From an uncultured archaeon (GTDB lineage Archaea > Asgardarchaeota > Lokiarchaeia > Sigyniarchaeales > SOKP01), in NCBI GenBank assembly GCA_964486045.1, contig CAZALK010000005.1, positions 1 through 64,000 on the forward strand: a DNA stretch of 64,000 bases, in the 5' to 3' direction. Positions 53,584 through 61,113 of the stretch are shown piece by piece; the stretch's first letter is position 1, and the number at the start of each line of letters is the position of its first letter. Below the pieces are notes generated by a model, which was not told the origin of the DNA, did not search any database, and saw only the letters and a list, made by a program, of their open reading frames with translations. Both the position numbers and the translations under genes were made by a program.

Positions 53584-55665
53584 ATGAGCAATTTTTTTGA
53601 ACTCTTGGAAAATAGAATTGGTTTTTCAAGAATTGGTAGGATAAATTTATCTAAAGAGAGGAAACTCTATATAAGGACACCAAATGTCACTATTCCAATT
53701 AAGAATGTCTTGATGAAACAGTTTAGCTTCATACAAGAATTTGAAAATCACGACTTATTCATTATATCAAAAGAAATTTTCTTGAAGATAGGTTTTCTTA
53801 GAGAAAAATTCAAAAATACTGGTTTTATTTTTTCCAATCCAGGTACATTTGAAAAATACGAGAAGATTTTAAGAAAAAATGAAGAAATTTTTACCAAAGA
53901 TAATGTTTTATCGATTATCCCTTTCAATTTTCCCTCAACAGCAATAGGAATAGATTTTGCAAGAAGAGAAGTCAGGTTTTATCTTTCTAATGCTACCAAA
54001 ATATTAAAAACTTATTCTAAAATTAATTTTGGTTTATCAATTAGGCTTTATGGTTATTCAGAGTTAATTCACCTTTATATTCCAACAATTAAGGAGTACG
54101 AAAATATAAAAATCCTAAATTTAGTTGATCTATTTGATAATTTCAACAATTTCAGGAATATTATTAACATTCTTGTTGAAATCAAAACACAATTGGATAA
54201 TAATATAGTTATCATGGCTTCTGGGAAAATAATTCCTAAATATTATCCTATATTAGTATATTTGGGGATAGATTTAATTGATTCCTCCTTTTTATTATAC
54301 AAGTCGGCTGAAAATTTGTATGATACCATCGAGTATTTTCTTCCAAGATATAAAGTTAAATATTTGCCTTGTTCTTGCGTTGCATGCAAAGGAAATTTGA
54401 AAAACCTTGTTAGTTCTAGATATTCAAGCGAAATGTTAGATTTACTTTGCTTACATAACCTAATTGTAGCCCTTAATTACATGATGAAAATCAAACAATA
54501 CTTACGTTATGAAGATTATAGGGGATTCGTTGAAAAGTCATCTCTTGATGATATTGCCTTAATTTCAATGTTAAAAATCTTGGATAAAGATTACTTTAAT
54601 CTTATTCGGTTTGAAACACCTATCTCCCAAAAAAATAAAAAGATTAATTGCCTAGGACCTTCTTCATATAATCGACCAGATTTTAGAGAATTTAGGCAAA
54701 GATCGGTTAAAAGTTTTGAACCAGAACCATGGACCACTATGATTATTGTATTACCTTGTTCTGCTAAAAAACCTTATTCATTATCAAAATCACATAAATT
54801 TTTTCATAGTGTACTTAGAAAGTTTCGCGAATTTGCAAATTTTCAAGAAATTATTCTAACATCCCCACTTGGAGCTATTCCGAGACAATTAGAGAACGTA
54901 TATCCAGTTAACTCATATGATATATCTGTAACTGGTGATTGGGATGACGCTGAAAAAGAAATAACGTCAGAAATGTTACACCAAATTGTAACAAAATATA
55001 ATGAAAATATTCCAATAATTTGCCATCTTGAGGGTGATTACCTTGATATCGCTGATATAGTTAATTCTAAATTACCGCATAATTTTTATTTTACAAAAGT
55101 TAATGGGAAAGTGACCTCTAAAGAATCTCTTAAATCACTTGAATCATTAGTAAAGCAGCATATAAGTGATTTTAGATCTTTAAAACCATTACCTGAAGGT
55201 AATTATTTATCTAATACTTGGATTAGAAAATTAATAAAAATATTAGATTATCAATTTGGTGAGGGATCAGGATTGAATATTATTAGAAACGAATTAGCTC
55301 CCCTCAAATTTAATTCTAATTCACAAATTAATTTGATTGATTTAATATCTAAAGAAAAAATAGGAGTCTTCAAAACTCTATCAGGTCAAATATGTTTGAC
55401 AATACAAGGTTTGAAAAGAATGGTTCAATCACCGTTTTCTATTGATTCAAATATTATCGTTTTTGATGGGCAAGAAATTCAGGGTAACAATCTATTTCGG
55501 CAAGGTATTTTAGATTTCAGCTCAGATTTGATCTCTAATAATTATGCTATCATTATTGATAAAGAAAAAAAGGAGATAATTGGAACCGGGAAACTAATTG
55601 TAGGCTCAAATTTTATAAAAAATTCTAAAACAGGAAGGATTGCTGAAATTAATGAAAAAAAATAG
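53584..55665 (+). CDS. arcS: Archaeosine synthase subunit alpha (TGT-like fold + DUF5591 + PUA)
   Basis: CSCVAC...HN, LPCSAKKPYSLSKSH, ILTSPLG.IPR.LE and YDISVTGDW motifs. Confidence 0.92.
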   Translation: MSNFFELLENRIGFSRIGRINLSKERKLYIRTPNVTIPIKNVLMKQFSFIQEFENHDLFIISKEIFLKIGFLREKFKNTGFIFSNPGTFEKYEKILRKNEEIFTKDNVLSIIPFNFPSTAIGIDFARREVRFYLSNATKILKTYSKINFGLSIRLYGYSELIHLYIPTIKEYENIKILNLVDLFDNFNNFRNIINILVEIKTQLDNNIVIMASGKIIPKYYPILVYLGIDLIDSSFLLYKSAENLYDTIEYFLPRYKVKYLPCSCVACKGNLKNLVSSRYSSEMLDLLCLHNLIVALNYMMKIKQYLRYEDYRGFVEKSSLDDIALISMLKILDKDYFNLIRFETPISQKNKKINCLGPSSYNRPDFREFRQRSVKSFEPEPWTTMIIVLPCSAKKPYSLSKSHKFFHSVLRKFREFANFQEIILTSPLGAIPRQLENVYPVNSYDISVTGDWDDAEKEITSEMLHQIVTKYNENIPIICHLEGDYLDIADIVNSKLPHNFYFTKVNGKVTSKESLKSLESLVKQHISDFRSLKPLPEGNYLSNTWIRKLIKILDYQFGEGSGLNIIRNELAPLKFNSNSQINLIDLISKEKIGVFKTLSGQICLTIQGLKRMVQSPFSIDSNIIVFDGQEIQGNNLFRQGILDFSSDLISNNYAIIIDKEKKEIIGTGKLIVGSNFIKNSKTGRIAEINEKK

Positions 55666-56752
55666 CATTACTGACGATTACAAAACAAAAATCTCTGAGA
55701 AAATAAAGTCTATAAGACTAAGGTCTTTGAACAAAAGGAAAAGAATTAGCAGAAAAGATCTTGATCGTCCTGTAAGTTTTTGGATTAAAAAAGACAGACT
55801 TGTCAATGAAGTTGGGAAAGAATTAACTATTATTCTAAGAACAAAAGGATGTAGTTGGGCTTTAGGTGAAACTGGAGGATGTTCTATGTGTGGTTATGTT
55901 CAAGATGCGAATATTGAAGAAGTTAATCAAAATCATATTCGAAATCAAATTGATTTTGTTTTAAACAACAAAATTAAGGAAATTTCAGAAGCTAATGAAA
56001 ATTTTGTAATAAAAATATTCAATTCAGGGAGTTTTTTTGATGAGAACGAGATTTCTGAAGAAACTAAACAATACATTTATGAAAAGGTAGCAAACATTGA
56101 TAATTTAAAAGAATTCATTATAGAGAGTCGACCAGAATTCATAAAATCTGAAAATCTTAAGGAATTAAAAGATTATCTAAAAGGAAAGTACGTAGAAATT
56201 GCAATAGGACTTGAGACTGTTAATGATTATATCAGAAATTATTACATAAACAAGGGAATGACATATGAAGATTTTATAAATGTATTTAAAATTTGTAAAG
56301 ATAATAGAATGGGTGTAAAAGCTTATTTATTGCTTAAACCTCCATTTCTTAATGAGGCAGGAGCAATAGATGATTGTGTAAATTCTATTAAAAATTTAGT
56401 TAAGTTAAAAGTCAATACAATATCTATTAACCCTCTAAATATCCAGAGAGGAACTCTAGCAGAGTACTTATGGTACAATAATAAATATCGCCCTCCTTGG
56501 TTTCATTCACTTTTTAAAGTTATAAAAAAATCAATATCTCAAAATGACCTTTTAAATGTAAGACTATTATCTGATCCTTCTGGAGCTGGAACAAAAAGAG
56601 GTATTCATAATTGTTTAAAAAGGGAATGTGAAAAAGCCGCTAAAAGAAGTCTACAAAAATTTGTATTCTCTCAAGAATTAGGTACATTAGACAATAATAA
56701 CTTTGAATGCGAGTGTAAAAGAAAATATCAGCTTCAAAAACATTTATATTAA
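55652..56752 (+). CDS. Archaeosine biosynthesis radical SAM protein RaSEA
   Basis: RTKGCSW...GGCSMCGY, FNSGSFFD, IESRPE and LLKPPFL motifs; follows arcS. Confidence 0.92.
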   Translation: MKKNSITDDYKTKISEKIKSIRLRSLNKRKRISRKDLDRPVSFWIKKDRLVNEVGKELTIILRTKGCSWALGETGGCSMCGYVQDANIEEVNQNHIRNQIDFVLNNKIKEISEANENFVIKIFNSGSFFDENEISEETKQYIYEKVANIDNLKEFIIESRPEFIKSENLKELKDYLKGKYVEIAIGLETVNDYIRNYYINKGMTYEDFINVFKICKDNRMGVKAYLLLKPPFLNEAGAIDDCVNSIKNLVKLKVNTISINPLNIQRGTLAEYLWYNNKYRPPWFHSLFKVIKKSISQNDLLNVRLLSDPSGAGTKRGIHNCLKRECEKAAKRSLQKFVFSQELGTLDNNNFECECKRKYQLQKHLY

Positions 56753-56966
56753 AAATTACTCCATACAAAATTTTGATTTAATAAACATTTTGATACTAAG
56801 TGAATATTATTTCTATCTTCATCCTTGAGCTTATTATTGATGCCAATAACCTCTTTTATGTATTACCCATTTTTGCAACAATATATAGTGAAAAACATTA
56901 TATTTAAATATGAGCTACCATCTTTAATTTTAAATTAAATTTTCATCTGCTTAGCAAGAGGATCTC

Positions 56967-57221
56967 TTGAAAAAAAAATGGGTTAAATTAAACCTATTCT
57001 ATATTGGACAATCAGCAAAAAGGCATCAAATCTTCAGAGTAAAACAATGGAATAGCAGTCTTGAAAGAATTTTAAAACAACTTTTATACGATGAGAACTA
57101 TAAAGTTATAGGTTTTATACAAGATATTTTTGGTCCAATTAACCTGCCATTTATTTCAATTAAAACTCTTCCAAATTCACAATTTGATCCCAATTTAAAG
57201 TTTTACACAAAATTAACTTAA
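56967..57221 (+). CDS. gar1: H/ACA RNP component Gar1/Naf1
   Basis: LYDEN..VIG.IQDIFGP...PFISIK; precedes tfb. Confidence 0.8.
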
Positions 57222-57256: not shown

Positions 57257-58246
57257 TTGATTAAAAAGGTGGTATCGATTTCAAGTTGGAGAGAAATAAA
57301 CTCGGTTTCAATTGAATTTTTTAGTGTAGAGAGTAATAAGTGCATAGAATGCGGGAAGAATATATTTTTTGATGAAAACAGAGGTTTGCTAGTTTGTGAA
57401 GACTGCGGTTTAGTTCACTCTGAAAAACATATTGATCGGGGTCCAGAATGGAGAGCATTTGATGCAGATCAGAAGAAGAAGAGAACTAGAACAGGCGCAC
57501 CTATGACATATATGATTCACGATAAGGGACTTAGCACTATGATAGACTGGAAAAATAGAGATATCTTTGGAAAGGAAATCCCCGCGAAATTAAGGGGTCA
57601 AATATATCGCCTTCGAAAGTGGCAGAGCCGAATTAGAGTATCAGATGCAACTGAAAGAAATCTTACGTTCGCTCTTAGTGAACTTGATAGAATGGCATCA
57701 AATCTTGATCTTCAACAAAATCTAAGAGAGGGTGCTGCAAAAATTTATCGGGATGCTGTCAACGCCCATTTAATTCGTGGTAGGAGTATTGAGGGTGTTG
57801 CGGCAGCAAGTTTATATGCAGCATGCAGAATGTATAAAGTACCACGAACTCTAAACGAAATTGCTGAAGTCGCTCGTGTCGAGAAGAAGGAAATCAGTCG
57901 TTCGTTTCGATTTATTTCAACGGAGTTAGAGCTGAGTCTAAATCCAACTAAACCAATGGATTTTCTTACAAGGTTCATTTCAGAATTAGATTTATCTGCA
58001 GAATGCCAAAAAATTGCAAAACAAGTTATTAGAATGGCAGAAGACAGAGGATTAACGTCAGGTAGAGGCCCCACAGGTGTTTGTGCCGCTGCAATTTATG
58101 TTTCAAGCATTATCACTAATGAACGGAGAACTCAGAGAAGTATAGCTCGTGTCAGTTGTGTAACAGAGGTAACTGTCCGAAATCGTTTTAGTGAGCTTGT
58201 TGAAAACCTAAATCTAGGTATTTCATTAAAGAGAACCAATAAATGA
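57257..58246 (+). CDS. tfb: Transcription initiation factor IIB
   Basis: Zn ribbon CIECG...CEDCG, GPEWRAF and cyclin repeats RGRSIE / SGRGP. Confidence 0.98.
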
Positions 58247-58440: not shown

Positions 58441-58776
58441 TTGGGTAATATACTAAATCAAGATGAGGTTAATTATTTCTTACAAAGGATAGAAAAAAAC
58501 TTCCCAAATTTTGTAGCAGGAATTATAACTGATAAACATGGTTTTCCTTTAGCGAGTAAAATATCTAAGAAACTATGGGTGCTTGAAAACACATTAGCGT
58601 TATCAGCAATTACAAAAAATCGCGATTTTATAGAGGACTCTAAATTGGTACAAATCAAGCGAGATTTGGATAAGAATAAAAACTACAGATTAATGATTTT
58701 ATTAGAAAAGTCTAAATATCACAAAAATCGTTTAAAACCTCTAAAAACCTTAATTAAAAGCCAGGATCTTTTCTAA
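58441..58776 (+). CDS. Roadblock-like protein
   Basis: AGIITDKHGFPLAS. Confidence 0.6.
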   Translation: MGNILNQDEVNYFLQRIEKNFPNFVAGIITDKHGFPLASKISKKLWVLENTLALSAITKNRDFIEDSKLVQIKRDLDKNKNYRLMILLEKSKYHKNRLKPLKTLIKSQDLF

Positions 58777-58983
58777 GATTGTGATCAGCAAGAACACAAG
58801 AAATAGAGTTTTTTATTGCGAGCCGTAGAAAAACAATTAGTTTGCTAAAATTTTTATATATAAAATTTCATCATTAACTAAATAAGGTTTGAGAAAAAAT
58901 ATATCGTTAGGTTTTAATAAATAGTGTTAAAATCTAAGAAAACCATTTTATAGAGATACCACACTTATTAGGTTGACAAATTT

Positions 58984-59451
58984 TTGAGTTTTTCAGAAGA
59001 TGAGTTAAAATTAAAGAAAGTATTAAATAATATTATTAATAGCACTCCTGGATTGAAATATGCAGTAATTGTTGACGATACAGGAATTACTATTCTGAGT
59101 CAATCTAAATTTACTTTTTCTGATAATAATGCTATATCTATTGAAAAAATTGGTGCAATTGGAGGAGCTGTCTTTGTTGCCGGTGAAGAACAAGGTCACA
59201 TTTTAGGATATGGAAATATTTCCCTACAAATTACAGAATATTTTGAAGGAATGATCTTTTCGATGAAAGTGGGTAAAGGAGTTTTATGTATAGCTACTGA
59301 TAAAAAAGTTCAAATTGGATTCATTATCGCTACAATGAAAAAACATGCATCCCGTATTGCTGCAATCCTAAATCAGTATTTACAAGTAGACCAGGGTGAA
59401 ATGAGTGAAGAAATCAAAGAATTGTTTAGATCTGATTTTATTGGATTATAG
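58984..59451 (+). CDS. Roadblock/LC7 domain protein
   Basis: PGLKYAVIVDDTGITI...IGAIGGAVF...GIGKGVL-like beta meander. Confidence 0.8.
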   Translation: MSFSEDELKLKKVLNNIINSTPGLKYAVIVDDTGITILSQSKFTFSDNNAISIEKIGAIGGAVFVAGEEQGHILGYGNISLQITEYFEGMIFSMKVGKGVLCIATDKKVQIGFIIATMKKHASRIAAILNQYLQVDQGEMSEEIKELFRSDFIGL

Positions 59452-59570
59452 TAAAAGAAAAAAATAACCTTGATGGCACCGAGGAGAACCAAAGATAATT
59501 CACAAAAAGTAAAGTTTTCTGAATTAAAATAATTTTAAATTTTGATAATTCATATTTTAATAAACTTCTG

Positions 59571-60080
59571 GTGAGTTTTTATTTGCATTTAGTTTTATCT
59601 TACTTTGATGGAATTCTGGGTCCAAGTGTGTTACTTTCCTACCCAGATGTAGTTTTAGAAGAAGATCTCATAAATAAGCTCAAGAAGTTTTTTGACTTAG
59701 AAATCGATGAAACATTTTTCGAAATCATTCTAATTACAAAAAAAAAAAAAATTATCAATTTTCATTTTGAAATACCGTCTGAGTGGGCTCGTGGTAAGAA
59801 AGAATTTGCTATGCTCTCTCTAATAATGAAATTAGATTATAAAAGTGAAGATCTTTATGCCTTTTTAGTTGATTCTTCATATAAAATTCTTAAAACCAAA
59901 AATGTGTATAAAGCATTTTATAAGTTTGATGAATTTCGCGACAACGATATAGAAATCGACTTAAACTATGAGATAATAAGAAAAATTCTCTTTAATTGCC
60001 TAAAAAGCTTAATTCTAAGAATAGAAGATAAGATTAAGGGTGTAAATAAAAAAGAACCCTTCCCTTTTTCCAAATTATGA
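59571..60080 (+). CDS. uDENN/longin-like protein
   Basis: LSYFDGILGPSVLLSYP and EIPSEWARG motifs. Confidence 0.65.
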   Translation: MSFYLHLVLSYFDGILGPSVLLSYPDVVLEEDLINKLKKFFDLEIDETFFEIILITKKKKIINFHFEIPSEWARGKKEFAMLSLIMKLDYKSEDLYAFLVDSSYKILKTKNVYKAFYKFDEFRDNDIEIDLNYEIIRKILFNCLKSLILRIEDKIKGVNKKEPFPFSKL

Positions 60081-60115
60081 AAAATTTTATAATCTAATTT
60101 TTCTACTATAATATT

Positions 60116-60430
60116 GGGAGTACAATGATGGAAAATATGCGCTTTCGAGGACTCATATGACCAAAAAATGATTATGCAGTGCAAAACAGCGCGAAAATCC
60201 AGAGTCTAATAATCAATATATGCAAGAACAATATGGGCTCTTATCTTAGCAAAGGTATACACCAAAGCAATGAGGATTGAGTCAGAAATCCCTATATTGC
60301 AGACATGATTATGTCCCAAATGTGCAAATGCCTGACACGAGAGAACATCTTTGATTTAAATGGATATACCTTAAGATGAAAAAGATTGTGTTAGTGTTTC
60401 AGGCAACAATTTTTCATATAGTCTTAAATT
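60116..60430 (+). ncRNA. Candidate structured ncRNA of about 300 nt, family not recognised
   Basis: ORF-free, GC-elevated, many nested helices, upstream TATA-like TTTTATAA (60085) and downstream T-run (60429-60436). Confidence 0.5.
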
Positions 60431-60513: not shown

Positions 60514-61113
60514 ATGAATATAATATTTTTCATTAAATCAGCTACAGTCTCCCTTGAAAACTATAATATTAAGGATATTCCTGGATCTTCTGGTCGATTG
60601 GACGTAATTTCAAGATGTATTCTTTCAGCAATACTAAGTAATAATGAATTTGAACGAAATATTCAGATATGGGTATTTTTAGATCGTTATGGTACATTTA
60701 TTTTTGATCCAGAGTTCTTCAATTATGAAACTTTCCCTAAAAATGAGTTACTCTTTACAGATTATTTTGTTGATCTCTTGAAAAAATATCCTACCCACAA
60801 AAATCCTCATCTTAATCCATTGAACTCAGTAAAAAGATCAAAAATGGGCATTTTAGAAGGGATAACACACTTTAAAAAGTTAAAATATGAAATATTTGTA
60901 CTAAAGGAAGGTTGTAAAGATTTCTTTAAATTAAGAAATGACATTCTACGGATGAATAGTATTATATTTATCCTTGGTAGCCAAGTGGATGAATTTCTTG
61001 ATTCAAAAGAATTATTAGAATTAAAAATTCCAACTATAAGCATTGGTTTTCAATCTTACTTAGCATCTTCTGTAATCCGATTATTGAAATTACATATATT
61101 AGCTTTACCATAA
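60514..61113 (+). CDS. trmY: tRNA (pseudouridine-54-N1)-methyltransferase (SPOUT)
   Basis: DIPGSSGRLDVISRCI, FILG and ISIG..SYLAS motifs. Confidence 0.8.
   Translation: MNIIFFIKSATVSLENYNIKDIPGSSGRLDVISRCILSAILSNNEFERNIQIWVFLDRYGTFIFDPEFFNYETFPKNELLFTDYFVDLLKKYPTHKNPHLNPLNSVKRSKMGILEGITHFKKLKYEIFVLKEGCKDFFKLRNDILRMNSIIFILGSQVDEFLDSKELLELKIPTISIGFQSYLASSVIRLLKLHILALP

What the first reader, a model, noticed from the sequence alone, without database searches (positions are those of the whole stretch)
60116..60430. Unannotated ~300-nt structured RNA candidate with two similar units and pseudoknot potential
Seen: no substantial ORF and higher GC than the flanks. Helices: CTCATAT(60152)/ATATGGG(60231), TGATTAT(60169)/ATAATCA(60209), AAGGTATA(60252)/TATACCTT(60365), GCAAT-GGATT(60267)/AATCC-ATTGC(60287), GACAT/ATGTC(60302-60315), and a 3' hairpin at 60377-60416 whose loop TCAGGC(60399) complements GCCTGA(60330). 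GCGCT(60139) can pair with AGCGC(60188). Both halves carry ACCAAA, GTGCAAA and AGAACA in the same order. G-U pairs, an upstream TATA-like box and a downstream T-run all point to the plus strand. SRP and RNase P signatures are absent. AGAACA fits an H/ACA-type box, with gar1 3 kb upstream and trmY immediately downstream, but a guide role is speculation; a tandem riboswitch or a new ncRNA class is equally possible.
Basis: partly seen in the sequence, partly recalled or inferred. Interest (0 to 1): 0.8.

Follow-up and report, generated by a model that had tools for sequence, protein, structure and literature searches.

The report
Asgard three-hairpin H/ACA guide RNA
The gap holds a real, unannotated RNA gene of about 300 bases, conserved across Asgard archaea, that is most likely a three-hairpin guide RNA telling the enzyme Cbf5 which uridines of the large ribosomal RNA to turn into pseudouridine; this is a known kind of RNA in an unusual, more elaborate form.

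Summary
Window 60116 to about 60414 (+) is a single-copy RNA gene with its own conserved TATA box. A covariance model built here finds it full length in 119 of 131 genomes of the family and in 10 further families of the phylum (Promethearchaeia, Asgard). The structure has strong covariation: 88-90% of cells paired against 32-44% for slid controls.

It consists of three hairpins. Each has a lower stem, an internal loop, an upper stem capped by a K-turn or K-loop, and an A-N-A box. In hairpin 1 the box lies 14 nt from the loop in 65 of 69 sequences, which is the archaeal box H/ACA rule. Cbf5, Nop10, Gar1 and L7Ae genes are present.

- **Hairpin 1** pairs 10 of 10 with the peptidyl-transferase centre (E. 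coli 2496 equivalent), the proven target of Pyrococcus Pab40 motif 1.
- **Hairpin 2** fits U2586 in relatives. In this genome the rRNA has C there and the guide has decayed.
- **Hairpin 3** has an unresolved target.

Extras are a conserved 5' C/D-like K-turn and two closing helices. Rfam misses the RNA. This scan found the same RNA family before in other genomes. It is not SRP RNA, RNase P RNA or a riboswitch. There is no expression data.

The parts
60080..60093 (+). Promoter: A-rich BRE-like stretch plus TATA box TTTATAAT (60086-60093), about 26 nt upstream of the conserved GGG start
   Evidence: Conserved in position and sequence in the 52-sequence alignment. Function is inferred from the known archaeal promoter layout.
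60116..60414 (+). The sRNA gene itself (about 299 nt). The 5' end is set by conservation and TATA distance; the 3' end is set by the last ACA box (60406-60408) followed by TTTTT (60410-60414).
   Evidence: Model R1 matches 60113-60421 at 265 bits. Conservation stops near 60413. The ends were not mapped; no RNA-seq was available.
60116..60119 (+). P1 5' strand GGGA, pairing with UCCC at 60314-60317. It closes hairpins 1 and 2 into one domain.
   Evidence: 96% paired in 72 sequences, with some double changes. It is missing or gapped in many distant lineages, so it is family-level only.
60120..60131 (+). Kt0 bulged strand, a C-box-like element: C-stem GUAC, loop AAU, then GAUGG
   Evidence: AUGA is invariant. 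The C-stem and NC-stem covary across family and phylum: helices 2-3 and helices 3-4.
60139..60192 (+). Hairpin 1 (H/ACA motif 1). Lower stem GCGCU/AGCGC. 5' guide UUCGAGG (60144-60150). Upper stem of 6 bp. K-loop UGA...AUGAU (60158-60172). 3' guide GCAAAAC (60181-60187).
   Evidence: Stems are 98-99% paired with many double changes. The K-loop is replaced by a true K-turn with a C-stem in the G018 clade. The 5' guide NUCGAGG and 3' guide GCAA are nearly invariant.
60195..60197 (+). ANA box of motif 1 (AAA here; ACA in most relatives)
   Evidence: ACA 52, AAA 9, AUA 8 of 69. It lies 14 nt from the pocket top in 65 of 69 and 15 nt in 4 of 69.
60198..60207 (+). Kt0 non-bulged strand, a D-box-like element: CC-A-GA followed by the C-stem GU(C)U
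   Evidence: The GA is nearly invariant. Covariation as for the 60120-60131 strand.
60210..60215 (+). P3 5' strand UAAUCA, pairing with UGAUUA at 60306-60311. It encloses hairpin 2 and its ACA box.
   Evidence: All six pairs covary. 99% paired in the family and 97% across the phylum, with 8-12 double changes per pair.
60221..60301 (+). Hairpin 2 (H/ACA motif 2, degenerate in this genome). Lower stem UGCAA/UUGCA. Loop. GGCUC (60236-60240)/GAGUC (60279-60283). AUCU/GGAU. K-turn (UA at 60247-60248 against AAU-GA at 60269-60273). GC/GC. Apical hairpin 60254-60263. 3' loop strand 60284-60296.
   Evidence: The lower stem exists as UGCAA/UUGCA, CCUG/CAGG or CUGCA/UGCAG. The 3' strand is ACCCAG in most relatives but AUCCCUAU here. 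The ANA distance is 17 nt here against 14-15 in 54 of 69.
60303..60305 (+). ACA box of motif 2
   Evidence: ACA 56, AUA 11, AAA 2 of 69.
60330..60404 (+). Hairpin 3 (H/ACA motif 3). Lower stem GCCUGA/UCAGGC plus CAC/GUG with a UU bulge. 5' guide GAGAGAAC (60339-60346). Upper stem. Tandem G.A K-turn core (GA 60353-60354 against AUGA 60376-60379). Apical GG/CC hairpin. 3' strand GUGUUA(GUG) 60388-60396.
   Evidence: GCCUR/YAGGC covaries by eye, though the helix scores only 66-78% paired on the model alignments because of a one-column register problem. The other stems covary. GAGAGAAC is found in 54 of 69 and GUUAGUG is invariant.
60406..60408 (+). ACA box of motif 3, followed by the T5 terminator-like run at 60410-60414
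   Evidence: An A-N-A triplet lies at +2 after the lower stem in all sequence variants. In most relatives, but not in this genome's clade, an extra helix GGCAUAG/CUAUGCY encloses hairpin 3.

Best explanation
This is a three-motif box H/ACA small RNA. It is the Asgard counterpart of the Pab40/Pf7/Afu-4 type of Euryarchaeota.

Proposed mechanism: each hairpin is bound by L7Ae at its K-turn or K-loop and by Cbf5-Nop10-Gar1 at the lower stem and ANA box. The two strands of the internal loop pair with 23S rRNA on either side of a uridine, which Cbf5 isomerises to pseudouridine.

- **Motif 1** is predicted to direct pseudouridine at the peptidyl-transferase-centre position equivalent to E. coli 2496 (own genomic LSU position 2768).
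- **Motif 2** fits the E. coli 2586 equivalent in relatives. In this genome it is probably inactive: the target base is C, the guide has lost complementarity, and the ANA distance is 17 nt.
- **Motif 3** has canonical geometry. Its target is unresolved between a U in UAGC-UG-GUUCUC (own LSU 1005) and the helix-69 loop.

A fourth, C/D-like K-turn (Kt0) and helices P1 and P3 tie motifs 1 and 2 into a compact junction, probably as an assembly or stabilising scaffold.

Shown here: gene conservation, secondary structure, motif geometry, complementarity, and the presence of the protein genes. Inferred: transcription, protein binding and pseudouridylation.
For: **Conservation.** The RNA is single copy. 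It is found in 52 of 54 genus genomes by BLASTN. It is found full length in 119 of 131 family genomes and in 28 genomes of 10 further families of the phylum.

**Structure.**
- On 73 sequences: 90.1% of cells paired against 33-43% for slid controls, 58 of 77 pairs with changes on both sides, 0 of 500 shuffles as good.
- On 21 phylum-wide sequences: 88% against 32-44%, 68 of 77 pairs with double changes, covariation 0.67 against about 0.1.

**H/ACA geometry.**
- A-N-A boxes follow all three hairpins.
- The motif-1 pocket-to-ANA distance is 14 nt in 65 of 69 and 15 nt in 4 of 69.
- Its upper stem is 6 bp plus a UGA...UGA K-loop.
- These values match the rules set out in PMC2377435 (helix H2 of 5-6 bp, ANA distance 14-15 nt).

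**Motif 1 target.** There are 10 Watson-Crick pairs (UUGC-UU-CCUCGA) at the register fixed by the structure. Only 16 of 1000 shuffled rRNAs do as well. The site is identical in all 30 relatives with data. It equals the experimentally proven Pab40 motif-1 site (P. abyssi 2588), using the offset of 92 derived from that paper.

**Motif 2 target.** The 3' guide ACCCAG pairs with rRNA CUGGGU just 5' of position 2586. It is kept in 18 of 21 genomes with U2586 and in 0 of 7 with C2586. The C2586 genomes fall in three genera and each has a different decayed sequence.

**Proteins.** Cbf5-type TruB_N, Nop10, Gar1 and two L7Ae-family genes are present.
Against:
- Rfam's HgcG model (RF00064) does not match.
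- Single-sequence folding is no better than shuffles.
- Target complementarity is only marginally significant for motif 1 (p about 0.016) and for the LSU-1005 candidate of motif 3 (22 of 1000). It is not significant for helix 69. A free scan over many registers is no better than shuffled rRNA.
- The motif-1 3' guide pairs only 3-5 bp, and its lower stem is only 4-5 bp, whereas Pyrococcus motifs have 7 bp or more.
- The motif-2 upper stem in this family is about 4 bp longer than the 5-6 bp rule.
- The ANA boxes of motifs 1 and 2 are directly followed by paired strands (Kt0, P3), which is unusual for Cbf5 PUA-domain binding.
Confidence: 0.8

Rival explanations
1. The RNA is a multi-K-turn scaffold or chaperone that binds several L7Ae copies and acts in pre-rRNA folding or processing, in the manner of U3, snR30 or MRP, rather than as a modification guide. 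On this reading the H/ACA-like hairpins are structural.
For: There are four K-turn-type motifs, including a C/D-like one at the 5' end. Helices P1 and P3 form a compact junction. Target complementarity is statistically weak. Motif 2 breaks the upper-stem rule and still persists in genomes where its presumed target base is C.
Against: The ANA spacing of 14-15 nt is kept with high fidelity, which is specific to Cbf5-type guides. The most invariant nucleotides are the loop strands, not the stems. Motif 1 matches a proven Pab40 target. The motif-2 guide decays exactly where the target U is lost. RNase P RNA is found elsewhere in the genome.
Confidence: 0.1
2. The RNA is a composite in which the 5' C/D-like K-turn (Kt0) is a working box C/D unit that also guides a 2'-O-methylation.
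For: The C-like RAUGAUGG and D-like YNGA elements form a canonical K-turn with a covarying terminal stem. Pab21 of Pyrococcus exists with and without a C/D motif (PMC2377435).
Against: There is no room for a guide: the D-like element is directly preceded by the motif-1 lower stem and ANA box. No C'/D' pair and no 10-nt or longer antisense element were seen. Nop5 or fibrillarin binding was not tested.
Confidence: 0.05
3. The region is a cis-regulatory leader or tandem riboswitch of the downstream trmY-like gene.
For: It lies about 100 nt upstream of, and co-oriented with, a PF04013 methyltransferase gene at 60514-61113.
Against: It has its own promoter and a T-run before the gene. The RNA is not next to trmY in 12 related loci and sits beside different genes in other genomes. 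No Rfam riboswitch matches.
Confidence: 0.02

Closest known systems
Pab40 / Pf7 / Pho40 (Thermococcales) and Afu-4 (Archaeoglobus): three-motif box H/ACA sRNAs, which earlier reports of this scan file under Rfam HgcG (RF00064); described in PMC2377435 and PMC4652768
   Same: Three H/ACA hairpins lie in one RNA, each with a K-turn or K-loop and an ANA box. The predicted motif-1 target (E. coli 2496 equivalent) equals the proven Pab40 motif-1 site. The motif-2 target in relatives (E. coli 2586 equivalent) equals the site that the paper assigns to Pf7 and Afu-4 motif 2. Helix 69, the Pab40 motif-3 site, is one of two candidates for motif 3.
   Different: There is no detectable sequence or CM similarity (RF00064 scores nothing). 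The RNA is about 300 nt. The lower stems are short (4-6 bp). It has an extra conserved C/D-like K-turn and the long-range helices P1 and P3. Motif 2 has a longer upper stem in this family. Whether the Euryarchaeal RNAs have comparable extras could not be checked here.
Haloferax volcanii sR-h45, a two-hairpin H/ACA sRNA guiding the pseudouridines at the E. coli 2586, 1915 and 1917 equivalents (PMC4652768, PMC7075261)
   Same: It covers the same conserved 23S sites (2586 and helix 69). One pocket may serve two neighbouring uridines of helix 69 by shifting register. That is also possible here: GUUA/UAAC for 1915 and UAGU/ACUA for 1917.
   Different: It has two hairpins, not three, and no 2496-type motif. 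Sequence similarity was not tested. I took its targets from the paper text and abstract only.
Pab21 / Pf1, an H/ACA sRNA that carries a C/D-box motif (PMC2377435)
   Same: An H/ACA guide is combined with a C/D-type K-turn element in one transcript.
   Different: There the C/D motif is an appendage present in only one of two RNA forms. Here the K-turn is formed by the 5' leader and the linker after motif 1. It therefore encloses motif 1, and it is conserved across the phylum.
Eukaryotic H/ACA snoRNAs and composite C/D-H/ACA scaRNAs such as U85 (from my own knowledge; not tested)
   Same: There are several hairpins with A-N-A boxes in hinge positions, long upper stems, and a C/D-type motif framing an H/ACA domain.
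   Different: Eukaryotic H/ACA RNAs lack K-turns and use a two-hairpin H-ACA layout. No homology is claimed.

Membership tests
Archaeal box H/ACA sRNA | A hairpin with lower stem, internal loop (pocket) and upper stem, supported by covariation | tested here: met
   All three hairpins meet this. Stems are mostly 79-100% paired with double changes; the GCCUR/YAGGC stem of hairpin 3 scores 66-78% because of an alignment register problem.
Archaeal box H/ACA sRNA | An ACA/ANA box immediately 3' of the lower stem | tested here: met
   An A-N-A triplet follows all three hairpins in 69 of 69 family sequences, and ACA is the majority form.
Archaeal box H/ACA sRNA | A distance of 14-15 nt between the ANA box and the pocket top (PMC2377435) | tested here: met
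   Motif 1: 14 nt in 65 of 69 and 15 nt in 4 of 69. Motif 2: 14-15 nt in 54 of 69 if two non-Watson-Crick pairs extend the stem, but 17 nt in this genome. Motif 3: 14 nt if the UU bulge is counted and the GUG of the stem is treated as guide, 16 nt otherwise (and my own counts).
Archaeal box H/ACA sRNA | A K-turn or K-loop capping an upper stem of 5-6 bp | tested here: inconclusive
   Motif 1 meets this with 6 bp plus a UGA...UGA K-loop. Motif 3 has a tandem G.A core in the right orientation and 6 bp with a 3-nt bulge. Motif 2 has a K-turn, but its stem is about 4 bp too long in this family; it is canonical (6 bp) in the G027/G029 family.
Archaeal box H/ACA sRNA | Bipartite complementarity to rRNA around an unpaired UN | tested here: inconclusive
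   Motif 1: 10 Watson-Crick pairs at the predicted register, 16 of 1000 shuffles as good. Motif 3: 10 pairs at LSU 1005 (22 of 1000), or 9 pairs at helix 69, which is not significant. Motif 2: good in relatives, lost here.
Archaeal box H/ACA sRNA | Genes for Cbf5, Nop10, Gar1 and L7Ae in the genome | tested here: met
Archaeal box H/ACA sRNA | RNA-dependent pseudouridine at the targets; binding of the four proteins | not testable with these tools
   This needs pseudouridine mapping and reconstitution.
HgcG / Pab40 family (Rfam RF00064) | A match to the family covariance model | tested here: not met
   No hit in the region at E up to 10. The only genome hit is 9.1 bits elsewhere. The same search also failed to reach the cut-off in any control genome, so the test has little power.
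HgcG / Pab40 family (Rfam RF00064) | Three motifs with the same target set (2496, 2586 and helix-69 equivalents) | tested here: inconclusive
   Motif 1 has the same site. Motif 2 has the same site in relatives. For motif 3, helix 69 is possible but not significant.
Box C/D sRNA | C and D boxes forming a K-turn, plus an antisense guide upstream of D or D' | tested here: not met
   A K-turn is present (Kt0), but there is no room for a guide element and no C'/D' pair.
SRP RNA / RNase P RNA | A match to the Rfam model; one copy per genome | tested here: not met
   RNase P RNA is at C18:75104-75427 (147 bits). An SRP RNA fragment is at C9:155907-156055 (47.6 bits, below the family cut-off). Neither is at this locus.

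The most novel reading that the evidence does not exclude
The RNA is more than a string of guides. The phylum-wide K-turn Kt0 and helix P3, with P1 in this family, fold motifs 1 and 2 into one compact particle with four L7Ae sites. In that particle the ANA boxes sit in internal loops, as the H box does in a eukaryotic hinge. Motif 2 has a eukaryote-like long upper stem. On this reading the RNA would be an Asgard-specific architecture intermediate between independent archaeal H/ACA hairpins and the obligately multi-hairpin eukaryotic H/ACA or composite sca-type RNPs, possibly with a role in rRNA folding beyond modification.
Probability: 0.2. Interest if true: 0.7.

Novelty: new variant of a known kind. 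Interest (0 to 1): 0.45.

Why it matters
H/ACA guide RNAs are hard to find by computer. I found none described for Asgard archaea in the library searched. These are the closest prokaryotic relatives of eukaryotes, in which H/ACA RNPs became central to ribosome, spliceosome and telomerase biogenesis.

This work provides a covariance model and a curated structure for a phylum-wide RNA that standard annotation and Rfam miss. It predicts specific pseudouridines in the peptidyl-transferase centre. It also offers a natural experiment: genomes that changed the target U to C let the matching guide decay. This is indirect evidence that the guide-target pairing is functional. The extra K-turn and junction helices are testable additions to the archaeal H/ACA architecture.

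Tried and rejected
1. **Rfam.** Neither the gathering nor the E-value threshold gave anything meaningful. RF00064 in the whole genome gave nothing at the locus.
2. **RNase P, MRP or SRP idea.** I raised this because of P4-like words. It was dropped once both RNAs were found elsewhere and the pairing failed in relatives.
3. **U3-like or composite C/D guide.** The K-turn is real, but there is no guide element.
4. **RNAalifold on a plain MAFFT alignment.** It gave a partly wrong fold. A crude all-against-all covariation script was too noisy. The structure was derived by hand and then tested.
5. **Free scan of rRNA complementarity over many registers.** It was no better than shuffled rRNA. Only structure-fixed registers were used afterwards.
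6. **Helix 69 as the motif-3 target.** It was at first invisible because this genome's 23S gene carries a 57-nt insertion in the helix-69 loop. After removing that insertion the match is 9 Watson-Crick pairs with three unpaired bases, which is not significant.
7. **trmY linkage.** It is not conserved.
9. **rRNA of the GC-rich relatives G027, G029 and G037.** It is not assembled, so guide-target covariation could not be tested there.

Full report
**Observation.**
- Window 60116-60430 has no ORF longer than 37 aa on either strand.
- Its GC content is 0.35-0.38, against 0.23-0.27 in the flanks.
- Rfam finds nothing at gathering thresholds and only chance-level hits at E up to 10.
- The minimum free energy of the plus strand is only 1.4 SD better than dinucleotide shuffles, and the minus strand is no better. 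A single-sequence fold therefore proves nothing.

**Conservation.**
- BLASTN finds one copy at 68-82% identity in 52 of 54 genomes of the genus. It finds none in other families of the order at that sensitivity.
- Related contigs are titled Promethearchaeia or Promethearchaeota, so this is a Loki-type Asgard archaeon.
- The same genome has RNase P RNA and an SRP RNA fragment elsewhere.
- The alignment shows a conserved TTTATAAT about 26 nt upstream of an invariant GGG. Conservation stops near 60413.

**Structure.** I derived a structure by hand from compensatory changes and then tested it.
- On a tool-made MAFFT alignment of 52 sequences, 89.6% of cells pair, against 34-42% when partners are slid.
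- A covariance model of the whole RNA (R1; 315 positions, 77 pairs) finds full-length single-copy matches in 119 of 131 family genomes and in 4 genomes of two sister families. It also matches 28 genomes in 10 further families of the phylum.
- On 73 model-aligned sequences, 58 of 77 pairs show changes on both sides and 90.1% of cells pair (slid controls 33-43%).
- On 21 sequences spanning the phylum, 68 of 77 pairs do so, with a covariation score of 0.67 against about 0.1.
- These alignments are fitted to the model, which favours it. The size of the effect, the GC-rich relatives (57-58% GC) that keep every helix with different sequences, and the earlier MAFFT test all argue that the fold is real.

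**Anatomy (window coordinates).**
- **P1:** GGGA 60116-60119 pairs with UCCC 60314-60317.
- **Kt0:** a canonical K-turn built from a C-box-like strand (60120-60131) and a D-box-like strand (60198-60207). Both its flanking stems covary.
- **Hairpin 1:** 60139-60192.
- **P3:** UAAUCA 60210-60215 pairs with UGAUUA 60306-60311. All six pairs covary across the phylum.
- **Hairpin 2:** 60221-60301.
- **Hairpin 3:** 60330-60404.
- Each hairpin has a lower stem, an internal loop and an upper stem capped by UGA...AUGA-type sheared G.A pairs. This cap is a K-loop in hairpin 1, replaced in one clade by a true K-turn with an inserted C-stem.
- Each hairpin is followed by an A-N-A triplet, at 60195-60197, 60303-60305 and 60406-60408.
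The latter is the nested lower stem of hairpin 3, not a pseudoknot.

**Test against the H/ACA rules.** Muller et al. (PMC2377435) give three rules for active archaeal motifs: an upper helix of 5-6 bp between pocket and K-turn, 14-15 nt between the ANA box and the target, and a dominant 3' guide. The 69 family sequences compare as follows.
- **Motif 1:** the box is ACA, AAA or AUA in all sequences. The distance is 14 nt in 65 and 15 nt in 4. The upper helix is 6 bp.
- **Motif 2:** the box is A-N-A in all. The distance is 14-15 nt in 54 if a G.A and a U.G pair extend the stem, but 17 nt in this genome. The upper stem is about 4 bp too long in this family, although canonical in G027/G029.
- **Motif 3:** the box lies at +2 after the stem, and there are 6 bp between pocket and G.A core. 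The distance is 14 or 16 nt, depending on how the UU bulge and the CAC/GUG pairs are treated.
- The most invariant nucleotides of the RNA are the loop strands: NUCGAGG and GCAA in motif 1, ACCCAG in motif 2, and GAGAGAAC and GUUAGUG in motif 3. That is what guides for invariant rRNA sites should look like.
- Genes for Cbf5, Nop10, Gar1 (window 56967-57221) and two L7Ae-family proteins are present.

**Target of motif 1.**
- With the register fixed by the structure, motif 1 pairs with own 23S at UUGC-UU-CCUCGA. This gives 4 + 6 Watson-Crick pairs around U2768.
- Only 16 of 1000 shuffled rRNAs do as well.
- The site is identical in all 30 relatives with data.
- By the well-known E. coli numbering of CCUCGAUGU (2498-2506; my own knowledge), the target is position 2496.
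- In the paper, the Pab35 sites 2549, 2672 and 2697 are stated to be the E. coli RluE, RluC and RluB sites, which gives an offset of 92 (my inference). The proven Pab40 motif-1 site 2588 is therefore the same position.

**Target of motif 2.**
- The usual 3' guide (A)ACCCAG pairs with CUGGGU(U), placing E. coli 2586 at the target position. The paper assigns this site to Pf7 and Afu-4 motif 2, and it is a known pseudouridine in Haloarcula.
- Among 28 genomes with both loci, 21 have U and 7 have C at that position.
- ACCCAG is present in 18 of 21 genomes with U and in 0 of 7 with C (Fisher p = 1e-4).
- The 7 genomes lie in three genera and carry different decayed sequences. Kinship still inflates the p-value.
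- This genome has C, a decayed guide (AUCCCUAU) and a 3-nt insertion, so its motif 2 is probably inactive.

**Target of motif 3.**
- One candidate is LSU 1005 (UAGC-UG-GUUCUC), with 10 pairs; 22 of 1000 shuffles do as well.
- The other is helix 69. It became visible only after removing a 57-nt insertion that this genome carries in the helix-69 loop.
- There, UAGU/ACUA and GAGAG/CUCUC flank the 1917 equivalent, with three unpaired bases. This gives 9 Watson-Crick pairs and is not significant.
- The target is unresolved.

**Rivals.** A non-guide scaffold role cannot be excluded without pseudouridine data. However, it does not explain the strict ANA spacing or the decay of the guide where the target is lost. 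A working C/D methylation unit is unlikely, because there is no room for a guide element. A leader of trmY is contradicted by the lack of synteny.

**Relation to earlier work of this scan.** After I had independently noted H/ACA-like hairpins with ANA boxes, a look-up showed that follow-up agents had classified look-alike RNAs in three other genomes as an Asgard three-hairpin H/ACA guide of the Pab40/HgcG type. I took the two papers from those notes and tested the claim here. The class and the motif-1 target hold. Rfam membership does not. The target set is only partly confirmed.

- the phylum-wide model;
- the Kt0/P1/P3 elements;
- the quantitative rule checks;
- the link between the U/C state at 2586 and guide decay;
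- the finding that motif 2 is degenerate in this genome.

**Limits.** The RNA ends are inferred. The E. coli numbering rests partly on my memory of the E. coli sequence.

Noticed in passing
L098 (own genome C1:570625-574067, minus strand), LSU positions 2142-2198: The 23S rRNA gene of this genome carries a 57-nt insertion inside the helix-69 loop (CUAUA | insertion | ACUCUC). Its ends can pair (CCGUCU...AGACGG), so it looks like a mini-intron. Thirteen relatives with data have an uninterrupted helix 69. It lies 2 nt from a candidate pseudouridylation site of motif 3.
   Followed up: partly
G041:C48, G045:C35, G090:C174: In three related genomes, an 81-nt 23S segment (own LSU 2875-2955) matches in two pieces that are 130-800 nt apart and break at query position 41-43. 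This suggests rRNA introns or insertions at that site.
   Followed up: no
Own LSU position 2901 (E. coli 2586 equivalent); loci L146-L175: This position next to the universally conserved U2584/U2585 of the peptidyl-transferase centre is polymorphic within one family: U in 21 genomes and C in 7.
   Followed up: partly
window 58441-60080: Downstream of tfb (57257-58246) lie a divergent small ORF, a Roadblock/LAMTOR-like ORF (PF08923, 24.1 bits, just under the cut-off) and a 169-aa ORF with an FDGILGP..YP start. Other windows of this scan call this set the roadblock-roadblock-longin cluster. The sRNA follows it directly.
   Followed up: no
window 53584-57221: An archaeosine-type TGT (TGT + DUF5591, 693 aa), a radical-SAM protein and gar1 (84 aa) lie in a row upstream of tfb. 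Several RNA-modification genes therefore cluster within 7 kb of the guide RNA.
   Followed up: no
G086:C17:42375-42465 and G087:C124:1-179: Two relatives have an extra partial copy. One is a 91-nt match to hairpin 3 alone, about 500 nt from the full gene. The other is a copy of positions 8-196 at a contig end.
   Followed up: no
Its adjacency to the sRNA is specific to this genome.
   Followed up: partly
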